NCBI GenBank assembly: GCA_963706045.1
Contig: CAVPLY010000008.1
Span: 13,966-77,965, forward strand
Direction of reading: 5' to 3'
Source: an uncultured Actinomycetota bacterium
GTDB lineage: Bacteria; Actinomycetota; Actinomycetes; JAHEKZ01
DNA length: 64,000 nucleotides
Both the position numbers and the translations under genes were made by a program. Of the stretch, positions 28,247-41,704 are shown in pieces. Numbering within the stretch: the stretch's first letter is position 1; the number at the start of each line of letters is the position of its first letter. The notes under the pieces are model-generated. The model searched no databases, had not been told where the DNA came from, and saw nothing but the letters and a program-made list of their open reading frames with translations.

Positions 28247-28256
28247 GACGGCCTCC

Positions 28257-28724: not shown

Positions 28725-28869
28725 CGTGGCTCCTCTGGGATGACCTGAACCTGGCCGCGGTGTCGACCGGATGCCGTCGATTCTGCCTCTCGCCGCTACC
28801 CCGATGCCAGAGGTGCGACGATGGCGCCGGCGGGCACTCCGGCTCGCTCCTCACGTCAGGAGCTTGCTC

Positions 28870-29223
28870 ATGAGCCAGGACCCAGTCGCAACCAACCCCG
28901 ACAACTACAAGGTCATCTTTGAAAACGATCGCGTCAGGGTGCTGGAGTACCGCGATACTCCCGGGCACCGGACCACGCCTCATGACCATCCGGACAGCGT
29001 CATGTACACCCTGAGCACGTTCCGGCGCCGTCTCTACGCCGAGGATGGTCAGACCCGCGATGTCGACATCGAGTCGGGCACGACCGGTTGGCTGCCGGCT
29101 CAGCGCCATGCTGGTCACAACATCGGTGACAGTGAGACGCACGTCATCTTCGTTGAGCTGAAGGACACCCTGGGCGCTGCCGAGGACGACGCTGGGCAGG
29201 TGGGCCCGACGCTTGGTGGCTGA
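28870..29223 (+). CDS. cupin-domain protein
   Basis: ATG at 28870. NYKVIFENDRVRVLEYRDTPGHRTTPHDHPDSVMY...HAGHNIGDSETHVIFVELK is a cupin metal-site pattern. Confidence 0.7.
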   Translation: MSQDPVATNPDNYKVIFENDRVRVLEYRDTPGHRTTPHDHPDSVMYTLSTFRRRLYAEDGQTRDVDIESGTTGWLPAQRHAGHNIGDSETHVIFVELKDTLGAAEDDAGQVGPTLGG

Positions 29224-29226
29224 AGC

Positions 29227-29392
29227 GGACCACCGCTGTCGCCCAGATTCCCGGTGAGCTCTAGTCATTCTGGGTCGGTGCGAACGGAGGAATACTCCAC
29301 GGCACGTCACCCATTCGGCAGCGGAACGTTCACTCTCTGAGACCGATACCTCTGATGCGAGGCTGTTGGAGCGTCGCCCTGGGAGGTGGAAG
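29227..29392 (+). promoter_or_regulatory. conserved upstream region / putative 5' leader of peptide cassette 1
   Basis: About 165 nt that aligns block by block with 29797..29961 (ggaccac, gatt(t)ccc, ctagtcatt, gtcgg, aacgga, cgtcaccc.ttcg.cagcgga, gggaggtg-RBS). Confidence 0.55.
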
Positions 29393-29503
29393 ATGAAGAA
29401 CGTCAAGGCACAGGTAGTCGTCTCGGTGCTCGGGAGTACCGCCACGATCCTCACGCTGGTGTCGGTCGTTGGTGCCGGTACCAAGTGGCAGCTCGGTCTG
29501 TAA
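29393..29503 (+). CDS. small hydrophobic cationic peptide, type A (36 aa): MKNVKAQVVVSVLGSTATILTLVSVVGAGTKWQLGL
   Basis: GGGAGG RBS 7 nt upstream of the ATG. Four paralogs nearby differ mainly at synonymous sites. Confidence 0.7.
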   Translation: MKNVKAQVVVSVLGSTATILTLVSVVGAGTKWQLGL

Positions 29504-29514
29504 GGGGAGGCGAC

Positions 29515-29619
29515 GTGAAGAACATCAAGGCTCAGGTGGTCGTCTCGGTGCTCGGGAGTACCGCCACGATCCTCACGCTGGTGTCGGTCGTTGGTGCCGG
29601 TACCAAGTGGCAGCAGTAG
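29515..29619 (+). CDS. small hydrophobic cationic peptide, type A (34 aa): MKNIKAQVVVSVLGSTATILTLVSVVGAGTKWQQ
   Basis: GTG start with an AGGGGAGG RBS, 11 nt after the previous stop. Near-identical to peptide 1. Confidence 0.7.
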   Translation: MKNIKAQVVVSVLGSTATILTLVSVVGAGTKWQQ

Positions 29620-29627
29620 GAGGCGAC

Positions 29628-29732
29628 ATGGAAAACGTCAAGGCTCAGGTGATCGTCTCGGTGCTCGGCAGCGCCGCCACGATCCTCACGCTGGCATCGG
29701 TGATCGGTGCCGGCAAGAAGTGGGCTCACTAA
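29628..29732 (+). CDS. small hydrophobic cationic peptide, type B (34 aa): MENVKAQVIVSVLGSAATILTLASVIGAGKKWAH
   Basis: ATG with a GGAGG RBS, 8 nt after the previous stop. Its C-terminus GAGKKWAH is shared with the peptide at 30074. Confidence 0.7.
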   Translation: MENVKAQVIVSVLGSAATILTLASVIGAGKKWAH

Positions 29733-29751
29733 GTCACAACTGTTGTGGTGA

Positions 29752-29787
29752 TTCGCGCCAGTCCCCGCCCAACGGGGCTGGCGCGAA
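29752..29787 (+). terminator. strong GC hairpin closing cassette 1
   Basis: ttcgcgccag-t-ccccg / cccaa loop / cgggg-ctggcgcgaa: a 15-bp stem with one bulge, 20 nt after the stop. Confidence 0.65.
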
Positions 29788-29796
29788 CGCATGTTC

Positions 29797-29961
29797 GGAC
29801 CACTGAGACCACCCGATTTCCCAGGGCGTCCTAGTCATTTCGAGTCGGCACCAACGGAGTGAACCCGCCACTGAGCGTCACCCGTTCGCCAGCGGAGTGT
29901 TCGCGAATCGTGGCCGAGACTGAGGGAGGAAATGTCGACGTCCCACCTCGGGAGGTGAGTT
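29797..29961 (+). promoter_or_regulatory. conserved upstream region / putative 5' leader of peptide cassette 2
   Basis: Duplicate of 29227..29392 with the same ordered conserved blocks, ending in a GGGAGGTGAG RBS. Confidence 0.55.
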
Positions 29962-30066
29962 ATGAAGAACGTCAAGGCCCACGTGGTCGTCTCGGTTCTC
30001 GGAAGCGCCGCGAGCGTTGCCGCGCTGGTGTCGGTGGTCGGTGCTGGTACTAAGTGGATGAGGTAG
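29962..30066 (+). CDS. small hydrophobic cationic peptide, type A (34 aa): MKNVKAHVVVSVLGSAASVAALVSVVGAGTKWMR
   Basis: Diverged from peptide 1 by many synonymous changes (gca/gcc, gta/gtg, ggg/gga, agt/agc, acc/act) and conservative replacements. Confidence 0.7.
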   Translation: MKNVKAHVVVSVLGSAASVAALVSVVGAGTKWMR

Positions 30067-30073
30067 GGGAGAC

Positions 30074-30181
30074 ATGGAGATCATCGAGGCACAGGTTGTG
30101 ATCTCAGCGCTCGGTAGCTCCGTCACGATCTTGTCCCTGGCATCAGTCATGATTGCCGGCAAGAAGTGGGCTCACCTTTAG
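30074..30181 (+). CDS. small hydrophobic cationic peptide, type B (35 aa): MEIIEAQVVISALGSSVTILSLASVMIAGKKWAHL
   Basis: ATG 7 nt after the previous stop, with a GGGGAG RBS. Type B C-terminus. Confidence 0.7.
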   Translation: MEIIEAQVVISALGSSVTILSLASVMIAGKKWAHL

Positions 30182-30215
30182 ATCGCGACAACTAGGTCAC
30201 AACAACAATCACCGC

Positions 30216-30249
30216 TCGCGCCGGTCCCGACACATCGGGGTCGGCGCGA
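30216..30249 (+). terminator. GC hairpin closing cassette 2
   Basis: tcgcgccg-gtcccg / acacat / cggggt-cggcgcga, homologous to the cassette 1 hairpin. Confidence 0.6.
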
Positions 30250-30272
30250 ACGTGTGTAACGGAAGACTCGAT

Positions 30273-30298
30273 GTGGTGGGCGATACTGGAAGAAAACC
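30273..30298 (-). repeat. displaced 3'-end fragment of tRNA-Val(GAC); distal att-like direct repeat of the island
   Basis: gtggtgggcgatacTgga is 17/18 identical to 41565..41582 (gtggtgggcgatacAgga). Similarity extends to aacc, giving 21/26. Confidence 0.75.
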
Positions 30299-30355
30299 GG
30301 GGACGAAGCTGACTCATCCCGCCCGGCGCTGGAGCCCGAATCGGCTGCTGACCCG

Positions 30356-30789
30356 ATGCATGACAAGGAATGCCGCACACTGTTCCGCAGACTGGCACGA
30401 CTTTGGCACCCCGACTTCGCCACCGATGAAGATGACAAGACGCTTCGTCACGCGATGATGGCTCGGATCAACGACCTCTACAAGACCCGGGACCAGAAGG
30501 TCTGCGGCGCCTCTGGGATCAGGGTGCCTCGGCGCTGACTGACGCCGGCCTTCCTGAACTTGAGGCGCTCCGGGAGCGAATCATCAAAGTGAGTGCGGAC
30601 CTTGAGGAAGTCCGGAGTCACATCGAAGAGCTTCTCGAATCACCACTGGAGCAACTCAGGGTGGATCTTGACGAGGCCCGAATGCAGGGAAGGGACCTCT
30701 TCGCCGAGCAGGCCGCGGAGGCTGACGCTGAGATCGACCAACTTCTCGAGGCACTTCACGATCTTGCTGACTCCGTCCAACACGAGTAG
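30356..30789 (+). pseudogene. J-domain (DnaJ-like) protein with frame break near 30488-30493
   Basis: FRRLARLWHPDFATDEDDKTLRHAMMARINDLYKTRD carries the HPD motif. Continues in another frame as EGLRRLWDQGASALTDAGLPELEALRERIIKVSADLEEVRSHIEELLE... (ORF 30589..30789). Confidence 0.6.
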
Positions 30790-30929
30790 TCCTCACAAAG
30801 ACCACCACGCGCGCAGGGCTCTATGAACTGAACATGGCTGGTCAAACGTCAGATGCCCAACCTGTTCAGCAGCCGGTCAACCTCGCTGTCCTGGCCACTC
30901 CACCGTCGGAGTTCGGCCTTCAGAGCTGA

Positions 30930-31637
30930 GATTGTCTCCCTGGCGTTGGCCAATTCCCGCAGGATCGATTGGGTGTGGGCAGCGACGGCTGCGACACCCG
31001 CGCCGAAGTCCTCATCGCCGAGTCCCTGAAACGGGTACGGACAACCTCCGGCTGCTACGTCCGCACCGGGAAGTGGTTCTCCAAGTACGACGGCCTCACC
31101 TTCAAACGGGCCACCAACCTCGACATCGACCACATGGTGCCCCTCGCCGAGGCGTGGGGGTCCGGGGCGAAGAAGTGGAACTCCAGCACCCGGGGCCGGT
31201 TCTCCAACGACCTGGCCTACCGGTACTCACTGATCGCGGTCAGCGCCTCCAGCAACCGGTCCAAGAGCGACAGTGACCCGTCTGAGTGGATGCCACCGCG
31301 CAGGAAGTTCCACTGCGACTACGCCAAGCAGTACACCGCCGTGAAGTAGCGGTGGAACCTGAAGGTGAACAAGGCCGAGCGCACCAAGCTTCGCCGCACC
31401 ATCAAGTCCTGCAGCGACAAGCGCATCCTCAAACCCCACCGAGCCGACATCAACACCGGCAGCTCAGGCGGTGGCGGTGGTGGTGGTCGGTGTGACCCGA
31501 ACTACGCCGGCGCGTGCATCCCCATCGTCAACTACGACCTCGACTGCTCCGACATCCCTGACCGCAACTTCCGCGTCGTCGGCAGAGACATCCACGGCTT
31601 CGACGGCGACGGCGACGGGATCGCCTGCGAGACGTAG
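30930..31637 (+). pseudogene. DUF1524/HNH-type nuclease fused to an Excalibur Ca-binding domain; N-terminus missing and in-frame TAG at 31347-31349
   Basis: GSDGCDTRAEVLIAES...LDIDHMVPLAEAWGSGA...SNRSKSDSDPSEW...YTAVK-stop-RWNLKVNKAERTKL...DGDGDGIACE. Both halves are in the same frame. No signal peptide or start codon lies upstream (stop at 30927). Confidence 0.7.
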
Positions 31638-31687
31638 AGCCTTGCACGAATACCTTCCTGAGAACATTGATCCTGCGTCCGCTGCTT

Positions 31688-32101
31688 CTAGTTGACCCTC
31701 CAGGCGGTGCGGTCAATGGTGATCGTCGAGGGGTCGCCGCTTCCCCAGTACCACCATTGAGGCACCTGTAAGAAGGGGGCGACATAGTCGTCTAGTGCTG
31801 CAGGATTGAGTGTCACATTGAAACCTTTGTGCAAGATGATTCGCTGATTGTCCATGTTCCCGAAGTAGTAGTCGCGCAGCCCGGGTTCCCTTTGCCCAAC
31901 CGTCGGATCCACCGGAATCCATCCCACTCCCTGAAGGTAGAACTCCGCCCACACGTGAGTCTGCTCGACCCCTGAGATCGCCCAGTGGCCGACAACGGGG
32001 CGTGCGGGGATCCCCGATGCGCGGGCAACGGCAACAAATAGTGCCGCGTAGGCTCCGCACTCTCCTCGGCCCGTGGCCAGCAGGCTTCTTGCGCCGTCCA
32101 C
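31688..32101 (-). CDS. transglutaminase-like cysteine protease core, short (137 aa, possibly N-terminally truncated)
   Basis: GECGAYAALFVAVARASGIPARPVVGH...HVWAEFY...GWIPVDPT is a Cys-His-Asp transglutaminase-core pattern. Only 46 nt separate it from the upstream gene. Confidence 0.6.
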   Translation of the reverse strand: MDGARSLLATGRGECGAYAALFVAVARASGIPARPVVGHWAISGVEQTHVWAEFYLQGVGWIPVDPTVGQREPGLRDYYFGNMDNQRIILHKGFNVTLNPAALDDYVAPFLQVPQWWYWGSGDPSTITIDRTAWRVN

Positions 32102-32147
32102 ACTCCGGCATCAACTCTGAGAGGGAAGTCTCCCGGTCCCTTCGGTC

Positions 32148-32843
32148 TCAGCCGTTGACCTGGGCGAGGTAGGCCTCGGTGAAGTCGCGCACCGCAGACT
32201 TGTCGGGCCCCATGGAAATGCCAACAGTGCCGTCGTGGTGCCAGGCGTAGGCGGCGACATCGCCGTCGTCCTCGACCGTCACGACTTGTTCGCCACCGAT
32301 GGTCTCGGTCGTGACAGTTCCGCCAGCGGATGCCACTCCTCCGGCGAAGCCCATGAGTATCTGCTCGGGTTCGTAGCCGGGTGTGTTCTCGACTGCAGGG
32401 TTCACCGTGGCCAAGAAGAGCAGGGCGTCAGGTTGGTCCGCACCTGACATCACCTGGTGACCGGAGGTTGCCAGGTAGAAGTCACCACTACCGTCGGGCA
32501 TTACCGCGGCTGCCTGGTCGTTGCCCTCGCTGAACCCCCGCTGAAATTCCTGGCTCAGGGCAGAGAATTCGCCGGTCGGGTTCTCGTAGGCGTAACCCGG
32601 AACCGATGTCAGCGCCGGTTCATCAGCTTCGGCGGTGTGCGCGTTGGTCAGAGACGGTTCGCTGCCGCCCAGCAGGAGGAGGTAGGCGCCGGCTGCCAGG
32701 ACACCGGCGAAGGCCAGCCCCGCCAGCCCCAGAATCGTCCACAATCGAATGCTCTTCTGTAGTGCACTCCGGGGCGGGATGTGTTGCTCTGCGGACGGGA
32801 TGCCGTCGGGGGTGAGGGGAGGATTCGGGGTCAAGGTTGACAT
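32148..32843 (-). CDS. membrane-anchored hypothetical protein, paralog of 37123..37815
   Basis: MSTLTPNPP..., one TM helix, then NAHTAEADEPALTSVPGYAYENP ... WHHDGTVGISMGPDKSAVRDFTEAYLAQV. The same blocks occur in the 37123 gene. Confidence 0.6.
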   Translation of the reverse strand: MSTLTPNPPLTPDGIPSAEQHIPPRSALQKSIRLWTILGLAGLAFAGVLAAGAYLLLLGGSEPSLTNAHTAEADEPALTSVPGYAYENPTGEFSALSQEFQRGFSEGNDQAAAVMPDGSGDFYLATSGHQVMSGADQPDALLFLATVNPAVENTPGYEPEQILMGFAGGVASAGGTVTTETIGGEQVVTVEDDGDVAAYAWHHDGTVGISMGPDKSAVRDFTEAYLAQVNG

Positions 32844-33155
32844 GTCACACCCACCTTCACGAAGGGGCATATCGATCCAGGCTCAGTGTCATCTCCGGTG
32901 CGGCGTTCCCGGTAGGGGCCATGGTCCCGGTGGTGCGGACTCGACCACTCCTGCTGATCACACGGCATCTAGAACCGTTCAGCGCACCGGAAGCGCCGGC
33001 TTCGTGCCATAGAAGGTGGGTCCTTCGTCGGGAGGTACTCGGCCATCGCTGAGGGGGAGTCAGCCTTGATGGAGATCGGTGGTCTGACGTGTCGGCGAAG
33101 GGGCCCGGCGGTGCTTCCACGCCGTCGAACTCCGCAGGTCTCGGGTGCCCGCGGG

Positions 33156-34298
33156 CTAGGTCGATACGGAGATCAAAGAGGCGAACTGCCGGAACATCTT
33201 CTCGCTTGCCTCGGGATCCGCTGTGTCGCCCCAGGAGTACACCACGACACCCCGCCCACCGATAACCGCCGCTCCCGCTGTCAGGGACAAGAGGCTGCCT
33301 TCGCTGCTGTGGTCGACCATCGATGCAACCTGCCAAGTCACGCCACCGATGTTTCGCGCACGGTGCTGGGCTGAGGTCCCACCACGTTCGTCCACGGAGT
33401 CCATCAGGCCGAGGATCACGGACTCGGGGGAGAGCGGGGACGACGACGACACGAGGACGAGCGACGCGGGGGGCACGCCGTCGAACCAATCACAGTCAAG
33501 GTCACAAGTGCCGCGCGCGCGCTCCCAGCTCGTGGGGAGAGCCGATTGGAGGCCGTTGTGAAGTCTCACGGACCTCCATGGATCGGTAGGTGCCACCAAG
33601 GGTGCAGGAGACGCCATTGGGTCGAAGTCCAAGATGGTGTGGACCGTCATCCGGTGGCCCAACGTCGTCATCGTCACTCCACCGACGAGTCGTACAGGAG
33701 TTCCGTCTCCGAGGACCATGACTCGCTGGTTCAGCGTGACGTCGTTGGCCGTTCCCTTCAGGTGGAGTGCCCGGATGGCGGAGGGTCCGGACAGGGTCCT
33801 TGTCAACACCTGCACCTGCTGGTCCTGCCAGGTCATGCTCTTGCCCAAGCGCAGGGGAGCGGCGGAGTCGACTGCTGCCATGGTCAGGGCAAGGCTGCTC
33901 CCTTGACCTTCTCGCTGCTGCCGAATCCAGGGGCCGCCAGCAGTCTTCTGGTAGGTGACGCCTCCGACGATCACGATGGATTGGCGCCCGATCTCGGAGG
34001 CTGTCATGTCCATCTCCATGTCACGACCGGTCATGTGCCCACTTCCCCGGGCTGTCATGTCTTCGCCCAGGAAAGTCATAGTCATCGACAGATCGAAGTC
34101 GGCATCGAAGCCGTCCCGCAGCAGCTCCGAAGCGGTGGCTGCTACGTCAACGGTCGCAGATGGAGATGGTGACGGTGCATCCGCAGCACCCGGTCCGGGG
34201 GACCCGTTGGAGCAGGCCCCTGTGCCGAGGGCAAAGGCAAACAGCACGGCTGCGGAGGTCGAGGGGGAGTGGGTGAGCCGTTCAGCGAAGCGCAGCAT
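33156..34298 (-). CDS. hypothetical lipoprotein
   Basis: Lipobox FALGTGAC followed by a Pro/Ser linker and a 330-aa domain. No family recognised. Confidence 0.55.
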   Translation of the reverse strand: MLRFAERLTHSPSTSAAVLFAFALGTGACSNGSPGPGAADAPSPSPSATVDVAATASELLRDGFDADFDLSMTMTFLGEDMTARGSGHMTGRDMEMDMTASEIGRQSIVIVGGVTYQKTAGGPWIRQQREGQGSSLALTMAAVDSAAPLRLGKSMTWQDQQVQVLTRTLSGPSAIRALHLKGTANDVTLNQRVMVLGDGTPVRLVGGVTMTTLGHRMTVHTILDFDPMASPAPLVAPTDPWRSVRLHNGLQSALPTSWERARGTCDLDCDWFDGVPPASLVLVSSSSPLSPESVILGLMDSVDERGGTSAQHRARNIGGVTWQVASMVDHSSEGSLLSLTAGAAVIGGRGVVVYSWGDTADPEASEKMFRQFASLISVST

Positions 34299-34392
34299 GG
34301 CGGGCCTCCTTCACGCGCATTCACTTCATCAGTGGGCGGCGCTCGTGGCCAGAGGACTTGGTCCCCCGGCGTGCTGCTGAGCCCGAGCCGCG

Positions 34393-34488
34393 TCAGTCCG
34401 TCAGCGCCTGGCGCAGGCTGATCTCGCCCTTGGGGTCGAGCTCTCGCGTGAGGATGAACCCGAGTCGGGCGTACAGGCCAGGGTTCCA
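34393..34488 (-). pseudogene. C-terminal remnant of a GNAT acetyltransferase (~32 codons)
   Basis: The minus strand reads WNPGLYARLGFILTRELDPKGEISLRQALTD-stop, a typical GNAT beta-strand/tail, with no intact upstream ORF. Confidence 0.4.
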
Positions 34489-34543
34489 CCTTCGCCCAGC
34501 ATGTGGCTGGTGAGCAGCTCGGTCCCTTATCCCTGCTCGCCCG

Positions 34544-36277
34544 TCAGCGGTTGTCCTGGCAGGTCACCTGTTGGGCAGGGAGGGTGTCGTGCAGAAGATA
34601 ATCGACGAAAAGGTCGTTGAGGCACTCATGTCGGAACCTCGCCAGGGGAGCGTGCTCGTTCCCCAACCAGGTAATCAACGGGGAGTCGAGCTGCTCGGCT
34701 GACGTCACGGCCACCTGGTACGGAGTCGTGGACTCGTCCTTGGATCCGATAATCATCACTGGGGTTCCGCTCTCGTTTGTCCAGGTTGGTCGGTGCGGAG
34801 GCGGATCCGGGATCAGTGGACTGTCGAACGCGGCCCACGACCAGTCGTTCCCGGGGTGCTCGGGGTAGTAGCGAAACTCCGGGTCTCCGGTCTGGAGACG
34901 CCATAGGAACGGAGCCGCGTGCTGGAAGCGGTGGTCGAGCGCGTCGATCTCGGCGTGGCTGTCCAGCTCGCGTAGGTCTACGTCCAGCCCGTTAACCATC
35001 GCCCTGATCTCGAGGCTATTGTCGCGAGCAAATGCCTGCGGGTCGTAGGGTTCGCCGTTCTTGAGATTGCGGAGCATCTGCTGGACGTCGTAACCGTCGC
35101 GGTCGAAGGAGAGGTACTCGAAAAGGCCGTTCCACCGATGCTTGATGAGTGCGTCCAGGCCCTGGTTGAACGTCTTCTGAACCCGGTCGGTGTCTCTGTA
35201 TGTGAGGGCAAGCAGACCGTGCACGAAGGCATACTCGGAGCTGAGCCGGAGCCGTGGGTCTCCAGGGAACGGCTCGAGCCCGACGAAGCCAGCGAGTTGG
35301 TCGTTCTCACCCCACTGCCGGATTTGCAGTAGCTTGCCCCGGACCTCTGTGGGCGTGAGCCCTTTGGCCTCTGCATAACCGTCAACGAGCCGGAGGACCT
35401 GCTCCTCGGTCGCGCGCACCTCCACCAACTGTTGCGCATCGGTCTCCCAGCTATCCCCTGTTGGTGAATCGAGCACCAGATGTCCGACGTGGTGCGGGTA
35501 GGTGCGCAGGTACTCTGCACCGATCGTCGTCCCATAGGAAGAGCCCAGGAAGTTCAGGTCAGACCGGTTGGTGACTGCCCGACGCATCTCCTCAAGGTCG
35601 TGGACGACACTCGAGGTTCCCAACGTCCACCAGGCTGGATTCCGCCCCTCGCAATCCCGCTGGAAGTCATCGAACGACTCCTGCAACTCCTCGGCCTCCT
35701 GCAGGTTCGCTGGAGTGAGCTCCCACTCCCAGTAGGAGGCGAAGTCCAGTTCGTCGGAGCAGCGAATGGGATCTCCGGATATCGGCTGCGAATGCAGCAC
35801 CCCCCGCGGATCAAAACCGACTATGTCGTAGGCGCTGCGAACCCTAGCGGGGAAGGGCTGCTGTTGAACCGTTTCGATGCCAGACGCGCCAGGGCCGCCA
35901 GGGTTTGTGAAGAGGGTTCCCTTGCTGCCCCGCTTCCCGGTGGCGGGCAGCCGCATCATGGCGATTGCGAAGTCTGGCAGGTCTGACTCGGATCCGTAGA
36001 CCGCCGGGACTAGCAGCATTGAGCAGTCCACTTCATCAGGTTCGAAAGATCCTGCGGGGTGCTTGACGAAGTAGTCGTCGGGGCACGGGCCCCACTCCAA
36101 CTGGGTAGTGGTGAGGGTGGAGAGGTTAGTTGGAGTCGGAACGCCCACTTCTGCTTCTTTGCCACCCGGCGCGCAAGCTGTGAGCATCGACCCGGCCAGG
36201 AGCAGGCCCAAGCAGGCGGGTTGGAGGGCCTTGGCCGACCACCCACGCCAAGCCAGGAGTGACCGATCGGGCGCCAT
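34544..36277 (-). CDS. secreted alpha/beta hydrolase of the tripeptidyl-aminopeptidase (TAP) family, lipoprotein-type signal
   Basis: FTNPGGPGASG, VGFDPRGV and the nucleophile elbow GSSYGT. N-terminal LLLAGSMLTAC lipobox. Confidence 0.8.
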   Translation of the reverse strand: MAPDRSLLAWRGWSAKALQPACLGLLLAGSMLTACAPGGKEAEVGVPTPTNLSTLTTTQLEWGPCPDDYFVKHPAGSFEPDEVDCSMLLVPAVYGSESDLPDFAIAMMRLPATGKRGSKGTLFTNPGGPGASGIETVQQQPFPARVRSAYDIVGFDPRGVLHSQPISGDPIRCSDELDFASYWEWELTPANLQEAEELQESFDDFQRDCEGRNPAWWTLGTSSVVHDLEEMRRAVTNRSDLNFLGSSYGTTIGAEYLRTYPHHVGHLVLDSPTGDSWETDAQQLVEVRATEEQVLRLVDGYAEAKGLTPTEVRGKLLQIRQWGENDQLAGFVGLEPFPGDPRLRLSSEYAFVHGLLALTYRDTDRVQKTFNQGLDALIKHRWNGLFEYLSFDRDGYDVQQMLRNLKNGEPYDPQAFARDNSLEIRAMVNGLDVDLRELDSHAEIDALDHRFQHAAPFLWRLQTGDPEFRYYPEHPGNDWSWAAFDSPLIPDPPPHRPTWTNESGTPVMIIGSKDESTTPYQVAVTSAEQLDSPLITWLGNEHAPLARFRHECLNDLFVDYLLHDTLPAQQVTCQDNR

Positions 36278-36283
36278 GGTGAC

Positions 36284-36925
36284 CTACACCCCCTCCGGCA
36301 TGTGGTCCCACATCCACTTTGAGACTCGCTGCGTTTCCGTCCACTCGGATGGATCGATCTGCCCTGTCCGTTCCGCTCCGACCCCCCAGAAGACGAATGG
36401 GGCCAAGAAAAGTGCGGCGACCAGCCAGAAGGCGTCGCCGACAGCGACGGTCGCACTGGACAGGAGGAGGCAGGCCCAGAAGCTGATACAGATGCGTCGC
36501 CAACGCCGTTGCGGGATGCGACCCAGTGTGCCGCGCACTTCAGGTGTTGTTGCCTGGGTTGGGTCGGCGGGAGTGTGCAAGGTGGGGTCAGTTGGTTCCG
36601 ACGTCGACGTTGCCGTGTCGACCTGGGCTAGTTGCTCGTCGAGGAAACGATCGACCTCGTCCTCGTCGTAACCGCGATTCCGGCGCCCTTGGGTTGTGAA
36701 GACGACGTTGCGGATCTCGTCCGCCGTTCGCTCGCCAATAGTGTCAATGAAGGCGTCAACCTCGGCGATGTTGTAGCCCATCCCCTTCTTGCGTGCGACG
36801 GTGAATCTTTGGTCGAGATGTTGGTCTGGGACCGGACCGCCGGTTGGGACTGCGTCGCGTAGGCGTGCGAGTGTCTGCTCGGGTGTCTCGGTGGTCGGCT
36901 GGCGATGTCTGTGAATGAGGCTCAT
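36284..36925 (-). CDS. DivIVA-domain protein with two DivIVA N-terminal repeats and a C-terminal membrane segment
   Basis: GYNIAEVDAFIDTI and GYDEDEVDRFLDEQL repeats, then hydrophobic ICISFWACLLLSSATVAVGDAFWLVAALFLAPFVFW. GGGGAGGG RBS before ATG 36925. Confidence 0.7.
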   Translation of the reverse strand: MSLIHRHRQPTTETPEQTLARLRDAVPTGGPVPDQHLDQRFTVARKKGMGYNIAEVDAFIDTIGERTADEIRNVVFTTQGRRNRGYDEDEVDRFLDEQLAQVDTATSTSEPTDPTLHTPADPTQATTPEVRGTLGRIPQRRWRRICISFWACLLLSSATVAVGDAFWLVAALFLAPFVFWGVGAERTGQIDPSEWTETQRVSKWMWDHMPEGV

Positions 36926-37122
36926 GGCACGGCCCTCCCCACAATCATGAGCAGCCGGCTTGTCCCTCGCTAGGGCCCTTCGCCCCGACCACGCACCTGA
37001 CTGACGCGCCCTGTCCGAAGTGTCTGTCGTGGTTGTCGGGACCAACGCCTCTGTCGATGCGCCCTGCCAGGTCATAGGACTGCGACTGGAGGCGTCTGCC
37101 CCCTGAGCAGTGGAGGTGGGTC

Positions 37123-37815
37123 ATGAGCACCGCAACTCCAATCCCCCCGCCAGTTGCATCCGATGATCCGCAGTTGGCTGCGACACCCGCGGAGCCCCCC
37201 AGGAGGAGCCAGGGCCGGCTCTGGCTGATCCTCGGGGGCCTCACGGTGCTGTTCCTTGCGGCTGTTGGCATCACCATTGTGTTCCTCTCCGGCGCGGACG
37301 ACACCGCCGTTGTCAACGAGCACACCGCAGAGGCGACCGAACCCTCCTTCATCGAGGTGCCGGGCTACGTGTACACGGATCCGCAAGCTGGGGATGTAGC
37401 CGACTGGGACGCCACGATGACGCAGACGAACGAGAAGATGGCCGACCTGCTGGGCTCTGACTTCGCAGACACCCCGTGGGTGACCTCCTGGTCGCTGCAC
37501 GATGTCGACCGTGCGACGGAGGGGAGAGACTTCCTCTGGCTGGGGCTGATCGAGATCAACCCGCAGTTCGCGAACGTGCCCTCCTGGGACACGGAGTTCT
37601 TCATCACCTCGGTGGCGGGTGACATGACCACCGGCGCGACCACCCTGTGGATGGACACCATCAACGATGAACCTGTCGCCGTCGGCTGGGAGGCCACGGA
37701 GGGCTGGACGATGTTCGCGTGGCTCCACGAGGGCACCGTGAGCGTGGCGGCCGGACCCGACGAGAGTGCCGTCCGCTCCTTCGTCGAGGCCTACATCATC
37801 GAGCAAAACAGCTGA
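37123..37815 (+). CDS. membrane-anchored hypothetical protein, paralog of 32148..32843
   Basis: MSTATPIPPP..., one TM helix, NEHTAEATEPSFIEVPGYVYTDP ... WLHEGTVSVAAGPDESAVRSFVEAYIIEQ. Confidence 0.6.
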   Translation: MSTATPIPPPVASDDPQLAATPAEPPRRSQGRLWLILGGLTVLFLAAVGITIVFLSGADDTAVVNEHTAEATEPSFIEVPGYVYTDPQAGDVADWDATMTQTNEKMADLLGSDFADTPWVTSWSLHDVDRATEGRDFLWLGLIEINPQFANVPSWDTEFFITSVAGDMTTGATTLWMDTINDEPVAVGWEATEGWTMFAWLHEGTVSVAAGPDESAVRSFVEAYIIEQNS

Positions 37816-38068
37816 GTGAACACGGCGTTCGCTGGTCGGCGCGACAGACGACAGCCCCGGCCGCGACGGGCCCCGGCCCCTTCGGGCGTGACACCTGTCC
37901 AGGCCGCCGTGTCCGAGGAAATCGGCGCATATCCTGGCGCACCACCGCATCACATGAGGGCGCGAGGTTCGCCGCACTCCCCTGACCTGCACCTACACTG
38001 TCGGGACGACAGTGTGGTGTTTCACGACTTAGTTAACCCCTGTCCCGCGACATCGTTAACCCTGCGGG

Positions 38069-38278
38069 ATGTCGAAGAACCGGGTCATCGTTGAAGCCGT
38101 GCTTGCGGGTCAGTCTCATGGGGCGGTCGCCCGCCAGTACGGGATCTCCACCGTCTGGGTGGGCAAGCTCGTGGCCCGTTGGCGGGTCGGTGGTTGGGAC
38201 GCGGTGGCTGTGCGCGCGGCTGACGGCCGGGCCGATGGGGTTAGGTCTGGAGCCTGTAGCGAGGTCGGAGTCCTCTGA
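38069..38278 (+). pseudogene. N-terminal HTH fragment of an IS481/IS3-like transposase
   Basis: MSKNRVIVEAVLAGQSHGAVARQYGISTVWVGKLVARWRVGGWDAV resembles transposase HTH N-termini. No catalytic domain follows. Confidence 0.5.
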
Positions 38279-38454
38279 GAGGTGGCCGAGTGAGCCTTCT
38301 ACAACCTCCCCCCGCGCGTAGTCCGGTCCCTCTGAAATAACTCTCAGGAGGACGAAGATCCCGGCAACTCTGCCGCATGAGGTCTTAGCCTGCCCGGATG
38401 CCCGAGGCCGCCAACCCGCCGGGCATGGCCGTCCGGACGCCGACAGAGATTCCG

Positions 38455-38706
38455 CTAGTGGTCCGAAACTCGGAACGCCACATACCGCATGACCACAGCC
38501 GCAAAAGTGAGGAAGGCCCACAGCCCAAGAGTCGATGCTGCCGTCACGATCATCATCCCTACGCCAAAGACGAGGCCGCGATCCACCACGACCGCCACTT
38601 CACCGAAGATGGAAAGGGAACCCACCACCAGGACTGCCCAAGAGAACATCCGGAAGACGTCAGCGGAGTTCAGAGCTTGCGAGCGTAGGTTCATGGTCTC
38701 CCTCAT
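38455..38706 (-). CDS. small hypothetical membrane protein (2-3 TM)
   Basis: 83-aa ORF with hydrophobic stretches FSWAVLVVGSLSIFG, GVGMMIVTAASTLGLWAFLTFAAVV. Confidence 0.4.
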   Translation of the reverse strand: MRETMNLRSQALNSADVFRMFSWAVLVVGSLSIFGEVAVVVDRGLVFGVGMMIVTAASTLGLWAFLTFAAVVMRYVAFRVSDH

Positions 38707-38900
38707 AGCGTTGGTGTCGCCGGTGGAGAATCAAGGTAGTCGACTGGAGGTGTGGTGCCTCGGCGGCTGAGTCCGCTGGTCCTGGATCTGCATACTCGTC
38801 CTTCCACCCGGGAAGCCGGCCGGTTCGCATAGTGAAGCGCCACCGATAACTCTGCACGAGATGCAGGATCGGGGCGGCGCTTCGGTGCCATGCTGGCGGC

Positions 38901-39101
38901 ATGGATATCTATCTAGCGATGGCTCTAAGCCTGCTCATCTCCTACTTCGTTATCCGCTTGGCCGTAGCCCATGCAATCGGGGACGCCCTGAGGAAGGCGC
39001 AGATCGCGCACCACGTTGCAGACATTCGAACCGTCGTCACCGAGGTTCTCCGGCAGAACGCCAGGACGACTCCCAGGGAGACCGAGCCGGACGTCGGTTA
39101 G
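38901..39101 (+). CDS. small hypothetical membrane protein (1 TM)
   Basis: ATG start, IYLAMALSLLISYFVIRLAVA helix, third-position GC higher than in the overlapping 368-aa frame. Confidence 0.4.
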   Translation: MDIYLAMALSLLISYFVIRLAVAHAIGDALRKAQIAHHVADIRTVVTEVLRQNARTTPRETEPDVG

Positions 39102-39193
39102 CCCTCCTTCATTGCCAGATACCGCAGGCACGCCCCGAGCCGGTCGTCACCGAGGTTCTGACGTTCCTCGGTGACCCACAAAGCCGAGTGCAT
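39098..39193 (-). pseudogene. short paralog/remnant of the 39992..40222 small protein
   Basis: The minus strand reads MHSALWVTEERQNLGDDRLGACLRYLAMKEG. This shares VTEERQNL.D..LG.C.RYL with the 76-aa ORF. Confidence 0.4.
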
Positions 39194-39512
39194 CCGGCGG
39201 CCACCTCGGGGGGCTGTACGCGCTCAAGTTCGTTCACCTATAGCCGAAAGATCGAACAACGGCTGAATCCGCGAGGCAACACGGTGAAGCATCTTGCGAA
39301 GGCTCAAAGCCTCCATGATGCGCGCACCAAGACACACAAGAGCCCCGCTTCAGAGCCGCGGCTCATTCAGGCTCAGGGGGGCCACACACTCCCGACGGTG
39401 AATGGCTACATCCTCAAGGCCGGGGAATGGGTTCCAGCGCCTGGCCACACCAAGGGTGAAGACGTACGCGCAGCGCTCAAGACCCGGTTTGGCGTCTACT
39501 GGGATCTGGGCA

Positions 39513-39967
39513 TGGAGTCTTTGATTCGGGCCATCGTGGTCGGGCTTGTCGCTTCAGCTGCCCTACTCATCGTGGGTCTGCTGATGCAGGCCGGAGGTGA
39601 TGTTATGTCTGGATATTGCGAGGTCGGCGCTGATGGTCAGTGCGTTGGTCCCACCTACGAGAAGGACGGGAATGGCGATTTCCAGCAGCGGGAGTATGCG
39701 GATCCCGCTGCTCTTTTCATCGGAATGTTTGTAGTCATCGGTGGACTCACCTTGGCTATCTCTATGTACCGAGCCCTTGGCGAGAGCCGCGAACAGCGGA
39801 CCATTGGGAATCGTCTTCTGTCCGGGGTCTGCTACCGATGCGGGACAGAGGTGAGCAACGGGGTTTGCCTCTATCGAACATGCACCCAGCCACCTCTCGG
39901 CGTGTCGGACGTCGCTTTGAAGGCGGAGCCGGTGCCGCAAGGAAGGCACCGGAGCCAATCCAGCTGA
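39513..39967 (+). CDS. hypothetical 2-TM protein with a C-terminal CxxC...C zinc-ribbon-like tail; start uncertain
   Basis: Downstream part of ORF 38861..39967: MESLIRAIVVGLVASAALLIVGLLM ... ALFIGMFVVIGGLTLAISMY ... CYRCGTEVSNGVCLYRTC. Confidence 0.4.
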
Positions 39968-39991
39968 TGTAACGAATCGAGGTTCGCGACG

Positions 39992-40222
39992 TCATCCTCG
40001 AGGTCGAGCGACTGATGCGGGAAGCCGTCTGAGCACCACCAGGTACCGAATGCACACGCCAAGCTCGTTATCGACGAGGTTTTGCCGCTCCTCGGTGACC
40101 GTGTACCCGGCCGCAGTCACGGCCACTGACAGGACGGACCAAGGCACCTCGTGGGGGCGGAGGTACACCCAGGCGAGGGTGCCGCCGCTCATGGGGTCGA
40201 TGCGCCACGGCTGCTCGGTCAT
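39992..40222 (-). CDS. small hypothetical protein (76 aa)
   Basis: ATG-initiated ORF convergent with the 39513 gene. A degenerate paralog lies at 39098..39193 in the same relative arrangement. Confidence 0.4.
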   Translation of the reverse strand: MTEQPWRIDPMSGGTLAWVYLRPHEVPWSVLSVAVTAAGYTVTEERQNLVDNELGVCIRYLVVLRRLPASVARPRG

Positions 40223-40344
40223 GGGTGGACCGTAGGTGCGGCCCGTGACATGGAGCAGCCCCCGGTCGCTACGGGGGATATGCGACCAGGGGGCTGCGTC
40301 AGTTAGGAATGCTAACGACGCCCGCTCACGTGCGTGGTCGTTTC

Positions 40345-40454
40345 GGCATCATTGGCAGCACAGAGCCCCGGCCACTAACCCTGGTCGGGGCTCTGCTTGC
40401 TGTTCTAGACGTGGATGCTGTCGAGCTTTGCCAATTTGACTGTGCCGTCGTCGA
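40345..40454. repeat. 110-bp direct repeat, copy 1 (105/110 identical to 41271..41380)
   Basis: Aligned by eye. Covers the 3' end of a small ORF (...DDGTVK.AKLDSIHV-stop) plus a 14-bp-stem hairpin (40361..40395). Confidence 0.8.
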
Positions 40455-40545
40455 AGCGGATAAGGCCGGGGGACCCGTCGAACTCCTCCAGGGTTCCGAA
40501 CCTGCAGTCAACGTAGACGCCGAGACCAGAGTCCGCTAGAGGCCG
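40405..40545 (-). pseudogene. small ORF copy 1 (...GVYVDCRFGTLEEFDGSPGLIRFDDGTVKLAKLDSIHV), no in-frame start
   Basis: Homologous to 41331..41494. The only nearby ATG (40548-40550) is in another frame and hits a stop after 4 codons. Confidence 0.35.
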
Positions 40546-40554
40546 TTCATGGAG

Positions 40555-40583
40555 GTGCCCGCCCGAGCTTGTCGGGCGGGCAC
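40555..40583 (-). terminator. perfect 12-bp GC hairpin after the 40599..41124 gene
   Basis: gtgcccgcccga / gcttg / tcgggcgggcac, 16 nt downstream of the stop codon. Confidence 0.6.
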
Positions 40584-40598
40584 CAGGGGGTGGACCTC

Positions 40599-41124
40599 CT
40601 AGTTGAGGGGGCAACCCAGGTTGTTGTCGGTGTCGAGCTGCTTGGCGAGTTGGATCATGGCGTCCCGGTCCGTTCCGGACAGAGCGTCGACCACAGCGGG
40701 CACCAACGACGGGCGGCCGTCCAAGCTCTCGCCCCATCGGCGCCAGGGGAACTGCAGGTATTCACCTTCGTCGTAAGCCGCGTTGAGCCACGCTGCGGCA
40801 GCCGCCCGGGCGAGGATCTGTCGCGCGCCATCGAGATCGCTACCTCCTCGAGCCTTCAGCGCGTTCGAGCATGGTCAGATCCTCGGAGATGAAGCCAACG
40901 GGGGTCATCGGCGCGGATGCCTTGTCGGACTCGGCACGAAACGCTTCGATGAAGGGCGTGCTCGGCTTCGCTTCCTGCCACGAATCCGTGTGATTCTTCC
41001 AGTAGCCCGGGGTGCAACCTTCCGTGCTCCCGATGTTGACGGCGTTCGCAGCTGGGGCCATCGCAACCGCCACTGTGAGAGTCATCAAAGTTGCCACAGC
41101 CGCGGCAATAAGTCTCTTCATCAT
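40599..41124 (-). pseudogene. secreted protein with CTPGYWKNH motif and C-terminal NNLGCPLN; frame break near 40858-40864
   Basis: Signal peptide MMKRLIAAAVATLMTLTVAVAMAPAANA, then GCTPGYWKNHTDSW. After ...DLTMLERA the sequence continues in another frame as LKARGGSDLDGARQILARAAAAAWLNAAYDE...QLAKQLDTDNNLGCPLN. Confidence 0.55.
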
Positions 41125-41270
41125 TCTCCCCTTCGTTGGAATCAGCCCTGACCTTTCCCCGAGAGATGCATACCTATTGGAGCACTCCCTGAACTCGGCC
41201 GTCCTGCGTTTCAGATATTTCGCGGCGAACGACAGAACCTTGCGGGTCGGGTTATGGCGAGACCGTCGTC

Positions 41271-41380
41271 GGCATCATTGACAGCACAGAGCCCCGGCTA
41301 CTAACCCTGGTCGGGGCTCTGCTTGCTGTTCTAGACGTGGATGCTGTCGAGCTTCGCCGTTTTGACTGTGCCGTCGTCGA
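41271..41380. repeat. 110-bp direct repeat, copy 2
   Basis: See copy 1. Five mismatches and the same hairpin. Confidence 0.8.
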
Positions 41381-41494
41381 GCGAATGGCAGCCAGGTCAC
41401 CGTCGACTGTCTCGAGTTGCCCGTAGTCGTCGCCGACCTGGGCGAGGGCACCGAACCACCAGGGGGACAACTCAGGGCGCATGCGTATGGTCAT
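41331..41494 (-). pseudogene. small ORF copy 2 (MTIRMRPELSPWWFGALAQVGDDYGQLETVDGDLAAIR / DDGTVKTAKLDSIHV) with a 1-nt deletion relative to copy 1
   Basis: Copy 1 reads cgc ttc gac gac and copy 2 reads cgc tcg acg acg. The missing T shifts the conserved C-terminus out of frame. Confidence 0.4.
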
Positions 41495-41565
41495 TGTCGG
41501 ATTCCCTTCCCGTCTGGCACGTGGCTGGCACGGACTTTGCGGGATACCCTCTGACCTGCGAAAAC

Positions 41566-41643
41566 GTGGTGGGCGATACAGGACTTGAACCAGTGACCTC
41601 TTCCGTGTCAGGGAAGCGCGCTAGCCAGACTGCGCCAATCGCC
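41566..41643 (-). tRNA. tRNA-Val (anticodon GAC), CCA encoded
   Basis: Cloverleaf read by eye: acceptor gggcgat/atcgccc, anticodon arm cttcc-ctGACac-ggaag, T-loop ttcaagt. The T-stem has one U-U mismatch. Confidence 0.9.
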
Positions 41644-41704
41644 CGCGGTGGTGCTGCGGTCCTGCTGTCGTTCCACTCTTCGTGCGGTCGTGCCCTCGTG
41701 CTGC

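What the first reader, a model, noticed from the sequence alone, without database searches (positions are those of the whole stretch)
30273..41590. An ~11.3 kb integrase-less island inserted in tRNA-Val(GAC), with the displaced tRNA 3' end still identifiable
The 18 nt gtggtgggcgatacAgga at the 3' end of tRNA-Val(GAC) (41565-41582, including CCA plus 1 nt) recur in the same orientation at 30273-30290 with a single difference (T at 30287). Weaker similarity continues into the T-loop region, giving 21/26. In the resident tRNA that position creates a U-U mismatch in the T-stem (actgg / cctgt). The displaced copy reads ccagt, which would pair perfectly, as expected if it is the ancestral 3' end and the resident 3' end was supplied by the element. 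Between the repeats there is no integrase. The content is a J-domain gene with a frame break, a truncated nuclease with an internal stop, a short transglutaminase core, a GNAT tail, an IS-type HTH fragment, duplicated small ORFs and a lower-GC stretch. This looks like an old, decaying integrative element.
Basis: seen in the sequence. Interest (0 to 1): 0.6.

Follow-up and report, generated by a model that had tools for sequence, protein, structure and literature searches.

The report
Stranded genomic island in tRNA-Val gene
An 11.3-kb piece of foreign DNA inserted into the end of a valine tRNA gene of an uncultured actinobacterium and later lost its integrase and one attachment arm, so it is stuck; this is an ordinary fate for such islands, but the scar shows unusually clearly which tRNA end is the original one.

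Summary
Three contigs of a close relative (95% HutH identity) join the left-flank genes to the tRNA within about 310 nt and lack the whole island. A sister contig, 98.8% identical in the shared flank, carries a related element at the same site.

The tRNA-proximal end belongs to a widespread family of tRNA-Val elements. It has the motif CGCAGGTCAGAG 7 nt past the tRNA, then two CGTGCCAG repeats 11 nt apart. In related contigs tyrosine integrases lie next to such arms.

The window has no integrase. Six-frame Pfam scans and tblastn with ten family integrases found nothing. At the far end only 18 nt of the core remain, fused to a 5'-truncated, frameshifted J-like gene. A deletion therefore most likely removed the far arm and the integrase. 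At least four genes are broken.

The resident tRNA has a U51·U63 mismatch, and the displaced copy would restore a perfect pair. Both pair types occur in relatives, so the displaced copy is the ancestral end.

Verdict: a real, decayed, immobilised island and a new member of a known kind. Interest is modest.

The parts
41567..41644 (-). tRNA-Val(GAC), complete, hybrid gene: the 5' part is chromosomal and the last ~15-18 nt were supplied by the element. It has a U51-U63 mismatch in the T stem.
   Evidence: ARAGORN; Rfam 62.9 bits; sequence; folds
41566..41583 (-). attL core: T-loop end, T-stem 3' strand, acceptor 3' strand, discriminator base, CCA and 1 nt
41549..41560 (-). P' arm motif CGCAGGTCAGAG (tRNA sense), 7 nt after ..CACC. 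It is shared with occupied sites L088, L090 and L213 and with at least 120 metagenome contigs, and is absent from empty sites.
41514..41532 (-). Two CGTGCCAG direct repeats with an 11-nt period, read as arm-type integrase-binding sites of the P' arm by analogy. The same pair occurs in L088, L213 and L109.
30273..30290 (-). attR remnant: the displaced ancestral 3' end of tRNA-Val (tRNA positions 60-76 plus 1 nt), 17/18 identical to attL. To its left lies the native flank (terminator of the small-peptide genes).
30323..30786 (+). Pseudogene: the C-terminal ~150 residues of a 389-621-aa J-like (KRWHPD) coiled-coil protein. It has a frameshift near 30499 and lacks at least 229 N-terminal residues; the truncation lies within 30291-30322, next to attR.
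30393..30409 (-). GTGCCAA-N4-GTGCCA pair on the same strand and with the same period as the P' arm pair, inside the J-like remnant. Either chance or a secondary integrase site; unresolved.
30834..31637 (+). Pseudogene of a GmrSD_C (DUF1524)-Excalibur nuclease, with in-frame stops at 30927-30929 and 31347-31349. A homologue is linked to other island genes in L214.
31688..32101 (-). Short transglutaminase-core ORF (profile positions 41-108 only)
32148..32870 (-). Membrane-anchored protein of unknown function, an inverted paralogue of 37123-37815
33156..34298 (-). Putative lipoprotein, 380 aa (weak match to the SCO4651 lipoprotein family)
34544..36277 (-). TAP-like alpha/beta hydrolase, intact. 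The nearest homologue (76%) sits in an ordinary chromosomal context in another MAG (L212).
36284..37075 (-). DivIVA-domain protein with a C-terminal membrane segment
37123..37815 (+). Membrane-anchored protein, paralogue of 32148-32870. A homologue is present in L214.
38060..38278 (+). Fragment of an IS-type HTH (HTH_29, E 0.0057), with no transposase body
   Evidence: L215 homology
38901..39101 (+). Small membrane protein conserved in related elements L195 and L157
39992..40222 (-). 76-aa protein that marks this element group. It lies next to the P' arm in L088, L195 and L213 and has 14 homologues; a partial second copy lies at about 39107-39176. Predicted beta-beta-alpha-beta-beta fold with no known relative.
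40599..41124 (-). Secreted-protein gene split over two frames (40840-41124 and 40599-40874), read as a pseudogene
41252..41494 (-). First ORF after the P' arm, frameshifted relative to its paralogue. The 112-nt repeat 41269-41380 matches 40343-40454 at 96%.

Best explanation
Window 30291-41566 is one genomic island. It entered the chromosome by site-specific recombination between the attachment site of a tyrosine-integrase element and the T-loop-to-3'-end segment of tRNA-Val(GAC). The element carried its own copy of the tRNA 3' end, which now completes the resident gene (attL, 41566-41583). The host's original 3' end was pushed 11,293 bp away (attR, 30273-30290).

Shown: the repeat; the empty site in close relatives; the family-typical P' arm next to the tRNA; the absence of any integrase; the broken genes.

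Inferred:
- The recombinase was a tyrosine integrase of the kind that lies beside the same arm architecture in related contigs.
- A later deletion ran from inside the attR core into the neighbouring J-like gene. It removed the P arm and the integrase, which in the complete relative L162 sits exactly there.
- As a result the island can no longer excise, and its genes are decaying.
- The donor element last lived in a host whose tRNA-Val had an A51-U63 pair. This host had U51-A63. That is why the hybrid tRNA now carries a U-U mismatch.
For: Repeat: 17/18 on the same strand, 0.04 expected.

Empty sites: L086, L087 and L089 align to the window up to 29488 and again from 41569, with 318 nt in between instead of 12.1 kb. 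In L083 the small-peptide genes lie about 520 nt from tRNA-Val.

Recent polymorphism: L086 (empty) and L088 (occupied) are 98.8% identical over 3.2 kb of the shared flank.

Family membership of attL:
- The motif CGCAGGTCAGAG 7 nt after ..CACC, followed by two CGTGCCAG repeats, is shared with L088, L090, L213 and L109.
- The same architecture occurs in at least 120 metagenome contigs. Direct repeats with an 11-nt period occur in 49 of 97 distinct loci, against 5 of 97 controls.
- Tyrosine-integrase genes lie beside it in about 25 loci.
- L162 is a complete example: tRNA, P' arm, 7.5 kb, integrase, P arm, displaced core.

Island genes recur together in related contigs L195, L157, L214 and L215.

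Composition: the tetranucleotide correlation with the rest of the window is 0.88-0.91, against 0.97-0.99 elsewhere.

No integrase.

Deletion at attR: the J-like gene lacks at least 229 N-terminal residues and ends at the junction. Identity with the tRNA starts only at position 60, whereas displaced copies elsewhere start at the T loop.

Ancestral end: the displaced A63 pairs with the resident U51, and both pair types exist in relatives. Only 3 of 39 occupied tRNA-Val genes show any T-stem mismatch.
Against: No integrase was seen in any contig of the closest (CGTGCCAG-type) group: window, L088, L109, L213, L214 and L215. Most of these are short, so the integrase position in this subgroup is inferred from more distant relatives.

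L213 has the same P' arm at the same locus but no displaced core. The insertion may therefore be old and partly inherited vertically, and the 'empty' sites could be excision products rather than never-occupied sites.

A GTGCCA pair with the P' arm's period and strand lies 107 nt from the attR core (109 nt in L162). This would fit a retained P arm, but it lies inside the J-like coding remnant.

The segment 31.7-36.9 kb is absent from the related contig L214, so cargo may have been added separately.

No circular form or excision junction was observed. Public runs hold only thin traces of this organism.
Confidence: 0.8

Rival explanations
1. The island is a non-autonomous element that keeps usable attL and attR (a cis-mobilizable element or satellite). 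It is moved by the integrase of a related tRNA-Val element, in trans or after tandem accretion; it is not a dead remnant.
For: The P' arm looks intact. A pair of GTGCCA sites lies at a P-arm-like distance from the attR core (107 nt, against 109 nt in L162; 0.21 expected per window). No member of the closest group seen so far has an integrase. Related elements differ in presence between strains 98.8% identical. Tandem accretion occurs at this kind of site (L162).
Against: The supposed P arm lies inside the coding remnant of a truncated J-like gene, and the second half-site is forced by the conserved W-H codons. The attR core is shorter than in other displaced copies and lacks the T loop. The core copies differ at one position. 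At least four genes are broken. The contigs of the closest group are too short to show that they lack an integrase.
Confidence: 0.12
2. The 11.3 kb is the sum of several events: two or more elements accreted in tandem, or cargo acquired later. Internal junctions were erased, so the two ends do not belong to one original element.
For: Tandem accretion is common in this family: displaced cores are followed by another element's P' arm in L162, L128, L200, L177 and L186. L214 links the 76-aa gene, the 37-kb membrane protein and the nuclease but lacks 31.7-36.9 kb. The nearest homologue of the hydrolase is an ordinary chromosomal gene. Internal duplications lie near attL.
Against: There is no second tRNA-end fragment (up to 3 mismatches) and no second perfect copy of the motif inside the island; near-matches to the motif with 2 mismatches occur at the chance rate. 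Composition deviates uniformly over the whole island. Genes from both ends (nuclease at 31 kb, 76-aa gene at 40 kb) are linked in L214.
Confidence: 0.15
3. The 18-nt repeat is not an attachment-site scar. It is a chance match or the remains of a duplicated tRNA gene, and the intervening genes are native.
For: Part of the low-GC region (26-30 kb) is native DNA. Several island genes look like ordinary actinobacterial cell-envelope genes.
Against: 0.04 matches are expected by chance. There is no tRNA-like sequence beyond about 26 nt. Close relatives lack the whole segment. The tRNA-proximal end carries element-specific arm sequences that are absent from all six empty sites.
Confidence: 0.02

Closest known systems
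tRNA-targeting genomic islands and integrative elements of tyrosine integrases, in the class that recombines in the T loop / 3' end of the tRNA (Williams 2002, Nucleic Acids Res 30:866, cited from my own knowledge)
   Same: The insert lies directly 3' of a complete tRNA gene. The element supplies a replacement 3' end. A direct repeat of the tRNA 3' segment marks the far end. The site is empty in relatives. Repeated arm sites lie next to the core.
   Different: No integrase and no recognisable P arm remain. The replacement 3' end does not match the host's T stem, which leaves a U-U mismatch.
Cis-mobilizable elements (CIMEs) as defined in ICEberg 2.0 (PMC6323972): islands that lost their integration and transfer genes but keep attL and attR
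   Same: Flanked by attL and an attR core. No integration, replication or transfer genes. Tandem accretion is seen in the same element family (L162).
   Different: attR is cut down to 18 nt and its flank is a truncated gene, so 'intact attR' is doubtful. Mobilisation was not tested. The host is an uncultured actinobacterium, and the related complete element is not conjugative.
Actinomycete integrative and conjugative elements (AICEs; PMC3218068, PMC3429521)
   Same: Actinobacterial host, tRNA 3'-end target, tyrosine integrase in related elements, size about 10 kb.
   Different: No Rep, FtsK/TraB-like translocase, Nudix or Kor genes were found in six-frame scans of the window, or among the L162 ORFs scanned.
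Phage satellites and phage-inducible chromosomal islands that encode their own capsid (from my own knowledge)
   Same: The complete family member L162 is 7.5 kb and encodes an integrase, a ParB-like protein, an AAA_25 helicase-like protein and an HK97-type capsid protein.
   Different: The window's island has no phage-like gene in Pfam or PHROGs. Only the attachment-arm architecture is shared.

Membership tests
tRNA-integrated island of a tyrosine-integrase element | The insert abuts the 3' end of a tRNA gene that remains complete | tested here: met
   tRNA-Val(GAC) at 41567-41644 is complete. Element-specific sequence starts at 41565.
tRNA-integrated island of a tyrosine-integrase element | Direct repeat of the tRNA 3' segment at the distal end | tested here: met
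   30273-30290 matches 41566-41583 at 17/18, with 0.04 expected
tRNA-integrated island of a tyrosine-integrase element | Empty site in related genomes | tested here: met
   L086, L087 and L089; L083
tRNA-integrated island of a tyrosine-integrase element | Integrase gene inside the element | tested here: not met
   Six-frame Pfam scans. tblastn with 10 integrases from related loci gave only E > 0.4. Integrases are present in related loci.
tRNA-integrated island of a tyrosine-integrase element | Arm sequences of the element family on both sides of the core | tested here: inconclusive
   The P' arm is clearly present (motif plus 2x CGTGCCAG). On the P side there is only a GTGCCA pair inside a coding remnant.
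Cis-mobilizable element (CIME, PMC6323972) | Lacks integration and transfer genes | tested here: met
Cis-mobilizable element (CIME, PMC6323972) | Retains intact attL and attR | tested here: inconclusive
   attL is complete. attR is reduced to 18 nt with one mismatch, it lacks the T-loop part seen in other displaced copies, and its flank is a truncated gene.
Cis-mobilizable element (CIME, PMC6323972) | Can be excised or mobilised by a related element | not testable with these tools
   No joint between 30272 and 41567 appears in four public runs, but coverage is far too thin to judge
AICE / ICE | Replication and DNA-translocation or conjugation genes | tested here: not met
   None found in six-frame Pfam scans
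Prophage or phage satellite | Capsid, terminase, primase or other phage-family genes | tested here: not met
   No PHROGs hit for 10 island ORFs and no Pfam phage domain. No hit for the arm patterns in viral contigs.
IS or composite transposon | Transposase, terminal inverted repeats, short target duplication | tested here: not met
   Only a ~50-aa HTH_29-like fragment (E 0.0057). The repeat is 18 nt of a tRNA end. No terminal inverted repeats were found.

The most novel reading that the evidence does not exclude
The CGTGCCAG-type islands at tRNA-Val would be a family of integrase-less hitchhikers. They would keep only attachment arms, including the 12-nt motif CGCAGGTCAGAG that is shared by elements with quite different integrases and arm repeats. 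They would be moved in and out of tRNA-Val by integrases of unrelated co-resident elements. The motif would then be a common docking site for a host or accessory factor, one that defines a whole guild of tRNA-Val elements in Actinobacteria.
Probability: 0.1. Interest if true: 0.6.

Novelty: new member of a known kind. Interest (0 to 1): 0.3.

Why it matters
For this genome, the result marks 30291-41566 as acquired, immobilised and decaying DNA. It also flags the resident tRNA-Val(GAC) as a hybrid with a weakened T stem.

More generally, this locus is a clean natural example of three things. An integrating element can replace a tRNA's 3' end with a version that does not fit the host. The original end can be read from the scar. 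Compensatory variation among relatives shows which end is which.

The by-product may be of wider use. A simple sequence signature (tRNA-Val end, 7 nt, CGCAGGTCAGAG, about 25-40 nt, two repeats 11 nt apart) retrieves more than a hundred integrative elements and defence or cargo islands from actinobacterial metagenomes. I could not find it described in the paper library.

Tried and rejected
The conserved peptide patterns hit 600 distant loci and none was a close relative. Close relatives came instead from the search for homologous proteins plus look-up of encoding contigs.

2. An exact look-up of the window's HutH from its GTG start found nothing; the annotated start is probably different.

3. 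The 76-aa family-marker protein was tested as a possible excisionase. It has no Pfam, NCBIfam or PHROGs hit. The AlphaFold model has pLDDT 86, but the best Foldseek hit in the PDB has E = 0.25. Its function remains unknown.

4. The nearest homologue of the hydrolase was checked as a route to an intact element. It sits in an ordinary chromosomal context.

5. Further contigs carrying the 76-aa gene (L213-L218) held no integrase and no distal att site.

6. Two viral-contig scans with arm patterns gave no hits.

7. A literature search for the motif string returned only unrelated eukaryotic primers.

8. Public runs X1-X4 hold exact but very thin traces of the organism. No excision joint could be seen or excluded.

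9. GC content alone is not a good boundary marker. The low-GC stretch starts near 26 kb in native genes; tetranucleotide composition fits the island better.

10. I first read the GTGCCA pair at 30393-30409 as a retained P arm. I downgraded this after the region proved to be the coding remnant of a truncated gene.

Full report
**Observation.** ARAGORN finds tRNA-Val(GAC) at 41567-41644 on the minus strand, next to tRNA-Cys and tRNA-Gly. Rfam scores it 62.9 bits. Its 3' end faces lower coordinates. It covers one base beyond CCA, CCA itself, the discriminator base, the acceptor 3' strand, the T-stem 3' strand and the last T-loop base. It recurs on the same strand at 30273-30290 with one mismatch. 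No other match with up to three mismatches exists in the window, against 0.04 expected. The weaker extension to 21/26 is correct. The two copies are 11,293 bp apart.

**Source and surroundings.** The window (66.7% GC) comes from an uncultured actinobacterium. The closest HutH proteins are from metagenomes and MAGs labelled Actinomycetes, and the source contig is 86,957 nt. To the right of the tRNA cluster lies the hut operon, which is syntenic in all relatives. To the left of 30273 lie five tandem small-peptide genes (29394-30181), an ORF without a family match (28771-29223), a DUF1348 gene and a DUF2252 gene.

**Comparative test.** Contigs that carry a HutH 95% identical to the window's fall into two kinds.
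- L086, L087 and L089 align with the window up to 29488 (the ORF at 28771-29223 plus a small-peptide gene) and again from 41569 (the tRNA). They have 318 nt in between, where the window has 12.1 kb. These are empty sites.
- L088 and L090 have the same right flank; L086 and L088 are 98.8% identical over 3.2 kb. In both, the tRNA is followed by different DNA that shares CGCAGGTCAGAG with the window, 7 nt after ..CACC. L088 also shares the pair GTGCCAG-CCAC-GTGCCAG and a homologue of window 40155-40235.
- L083 (88% HutH) has the small-peptide genes about 520 nt from the tRNA.
- L082 and L085 have other short content and no motif.
- L213 (flanks about 80% identical) has the same P' arm as the window at the same locus, followed by the 76-aa gene. 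It has no displaced core, no integrase and no small-peptide genes, so it is a more eroded remnant.

The segment is therefore an insertion at a site that varies between strains.

**Which end is ancestral.** The resident T stem is ACUGG/CCUGU, with a U51-U63 mismatch. The displaced copy reads CCAGU, which would pair perfectly. L083, L085 and L086 have ACAGG/CCUGU, while L082 and L088 have ACUGG/CCAGU. Both pair types therefore exist naturally. The window combines the 5' strand of one type with the 3' strand of the other, and the matching 3' strand sits at the far end next to native flank DNA. This is what integration predicts. Two independent later mutations would have to hit the two partners of one pair and produce complementary bases, which I estimate at roughly 1 in 50. 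The cloverleaf is the minimum-energy and centroid fold only with the displaced end (-30.4 against -28.0 kcal/mol). Among 39 distinct occupied tRNA-Val genes retrieved, only three have any T-stem mismatch.

- The motif follows tRNA-Val genes with GAC, CAC or TAC anticodons and varied T arms.
- It is followed about 25-40 nt later by two direct repeats, mostly 11 nt apart. These occur in 49 of 97 distinct loci, against 5 of 97 control regions.
- The repeat sequence differs between groups: GGGGAACA, CGTGCCAG, CGTGCTAT, TGTAGCAAC, TACCCCAAC.
- Genes similar to a tyrosine integrase (PF00589 in the L114 protein) lie beside these arms in about 25 loci.

L162 is a complete example. It runs: tRNA-Val(CAC); motif; 2x CGTGCTAT; 7.5 kb encoding a capsid protein, an AAA_25 protein and a ParB-like protein; an integrase whose start lies about 190 nt from the core; 2x CGTGCTAT; two further CGCAGGTCAG copies; the displaced core starting at the T stem. 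After that comes the P' arm of an older element, which shows tandem accretion. By analogy with lambda-type attachment sites, the repeats are arm-type integrase sites. That is an inference. The function of the 12-nt motif is unknown. Its presence in the P' arm is by construction of the search, but its recurrence in P arms (direct in L162, L147, L151, L200 and L209; inverted in L128, L159 and L186; background 0.3 per kb) is not.

**What the window lacks.**
- Six-frame translations of 30150-41640 scanned against Pfam show no integrase, recombinase, excisionase, replication, transfer or phage domain.
- tblastn with ten integrases taken from the retrieved loci gives only noise, E > 0.4.
- PHROGs finds nothing.

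**What the window holds.**
- A GmrSD_C-Excalibur nuclease gene with two in-frame stops.
- The C-terminal part of a transglutaminase core.
- Two paralogous membrane-anchored proteins in inverted orientation.
- A putative lipoprotein and a TAP-like hydrolase. The hydrolase's nearest homologue (76%) is an ordinary chromosomal gene in another MAG.
- A DivIVA-domain protein.
- An IS-type HTH fragment.
- Small membrane proteins.
- The 76-aa marker gene with a partial second copy.
- A secreted-protein gene split over two frames.
- A frameshifted first ORF within a 112-nt repeat.

Genes from both ends of the island are linked in the related contigs L214 and L215. The tetranucleotide composition of the island is the most deviant in the 64 kb: r = 0.88-0.91, against 0.97-0.99 elsewhere.

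**The left end.** The ORFs at 30323-30786 are the C-terminal ~150 residues of a protein family of 389-621 residues, with a DUF4236 N-terminus, a KRWHPD J-like motif and a coiled coil.
- Read across a frameshift near 30499, they align without a break to residues 230-380 of P0256 (42% identity, E 2e-33). The J-domain match itself is weak (DnaJ E 0.0037, below Pfam's threshold).
- At least 229 N-terminal residues are missing, and the truncation falls within 30291-30322, directly beside the displaced core.
- That core matches the tRNA only from position 60, whereas displaced cores in other contigs start at the T loop or T stem.

Together with the position of the integrase in L162, this suggests one deletion that ran from inside the attR core into the J-like gene and removed the P arm and the integrase.

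One observation does not fit comfortably. GTGCCAA-N4-GTGCCA at 30393-30409 has the strand and period of the P' arm pair and lies 107 nt from ATCGCCC, against 109 nt in L162 (0.21 expected per window). However, it lies inside the coding remnant, and its second half is forced by the conserved Trp-His codons. I treat it as probably chance, possibly a secondary site. It is unresolved.

**Mechanism and status.** Integration by a tyrosine integrase at the T-loop/3' end of tRNA-Val is well supported by anatomy and comparison. It is not shown directly. Loss of the integrase by deletion is the best reading. The alternatives are a hitchhiker that is mobilised in trans or in cis, or a composite of several events; neither is excluded, and both are scored in the rivals. 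Public runs contain only thin traces of this organism, including exact island pieces in X2, and give no information on excision.

**Comparison with known systems.** The island has the structure of a classical tRNA-integrated genomic island and formally resembles a CIME (PMC6323972), although its attR is damaged. It is not an AICE/ICE, a prophage, a satellite or a transposon by gene content. It is a new member of a known kind, and interest is modest. The tRNA-scar logic and the family-wide arm signature are the parts worth keeping.

Noticed in passing
window 29248-30260: Five tandem genes encode 33-36-aa hydrophobic peptides (e.g. MKNVKAQVVVSVLGSTATILTLVSVVGAGTKWQLGL). They form two clusters, each with a ~150-nt conserved leader and a terminator hairpin. 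They are conserved beside tRNA-Val in relatives (L083 7880-8098; L086 351-455 and 1208-1315). There is no Pfam match and the function is unknown.
   Followed up: partly
L092-L211; window 41549-41560: The 12-nt motif CGCAGGTCAGAG sits 7 nt after the end of tRNA-Val (GAC, CAC or TAC) in at least 120 metagenome contigs. It is followed by two direct repeats at an 11-nt period whose sequence differs between groups. The motif recurs in the opposite arm of complete elements, either direct or inverted. It was not found as a string in the paper library and is absent from viral contigs.
   Followed up: partly
L162 2112-9830: A complete 7.5-kb element sits in tRNA-Val(CAC). It encodes an HK97-type capsid protein, an AAA_25 protein, a ParB-like protein and an integrase, so it looks like a phage satellite. 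It lies in tandem in front of an older element's arm.
   Followed up: partly
L121, L176, L180, L155 (first 5 kb after the tRNA): Several islands of this family start with very large ORFs whose N-terminal sequences looked to me like restriction-modification or helicase proteins. These tRNA-Val sites may act as defence-island hotspots. This was judged by eye from the ORF translations only.
   Followed up: no
window 39992-40222 and homologues P0242-P0255: A conserved 76-aa protein lies next to the tRNA-proximal arm in L088, L195 and L213. It has a confident predicted beta-beta-alpha-beta-beta fold (pLDDT 86) with no structural relative in the PDB. It occurs in two copies in L214 and partly duplicated in the window.
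   Followed up: yes
window 40343-40454 / 41269-41380 and 39115-39176 / 40039-40100: Repeats spaced about 925 bp apart near the tRNA end of the island (96% and 76% identical) indicate a local tandem duplication. Compared with L195, the duplication moved the 76-aa gene about 0.8 kb (roughly 790 nt) further from the arm.
   Followed up: partly
L081, L084, L090 (contig ends): Contigs of close relatives, from a MAG (L081) and from metagenome assemblies (L084, L090), break at or inside this tRNA cluster. This is expected where strains differ in what follows the tRNA, and it means such islands are under-sampled in MAGs.
   Followed up: no
L086 1613-1700 versus window 41566-41583: tRNA-Val(GAC) of the empty-site relatives does not encode CCA (tail CTG). 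The window encodes CCA in both copies. Elements of the L088, L213 and L195 type supply CCG. The encoded 3' tail of this tRNA thus varies with the occupancy history of the site.
   Followed up: no
window 26000-30270: Native genes left of the island (DUF2252, DUF1348, the ORF at 28771-29223 and the peptide genes) also have lower GC (0.64) and intermediate tetranucleotide deviation. The whole stretch between DUF2252 and tRNA-Val differs in content between L082, L083, L213 and the window, so it is a long-standing variable region.
   Followed up: partly
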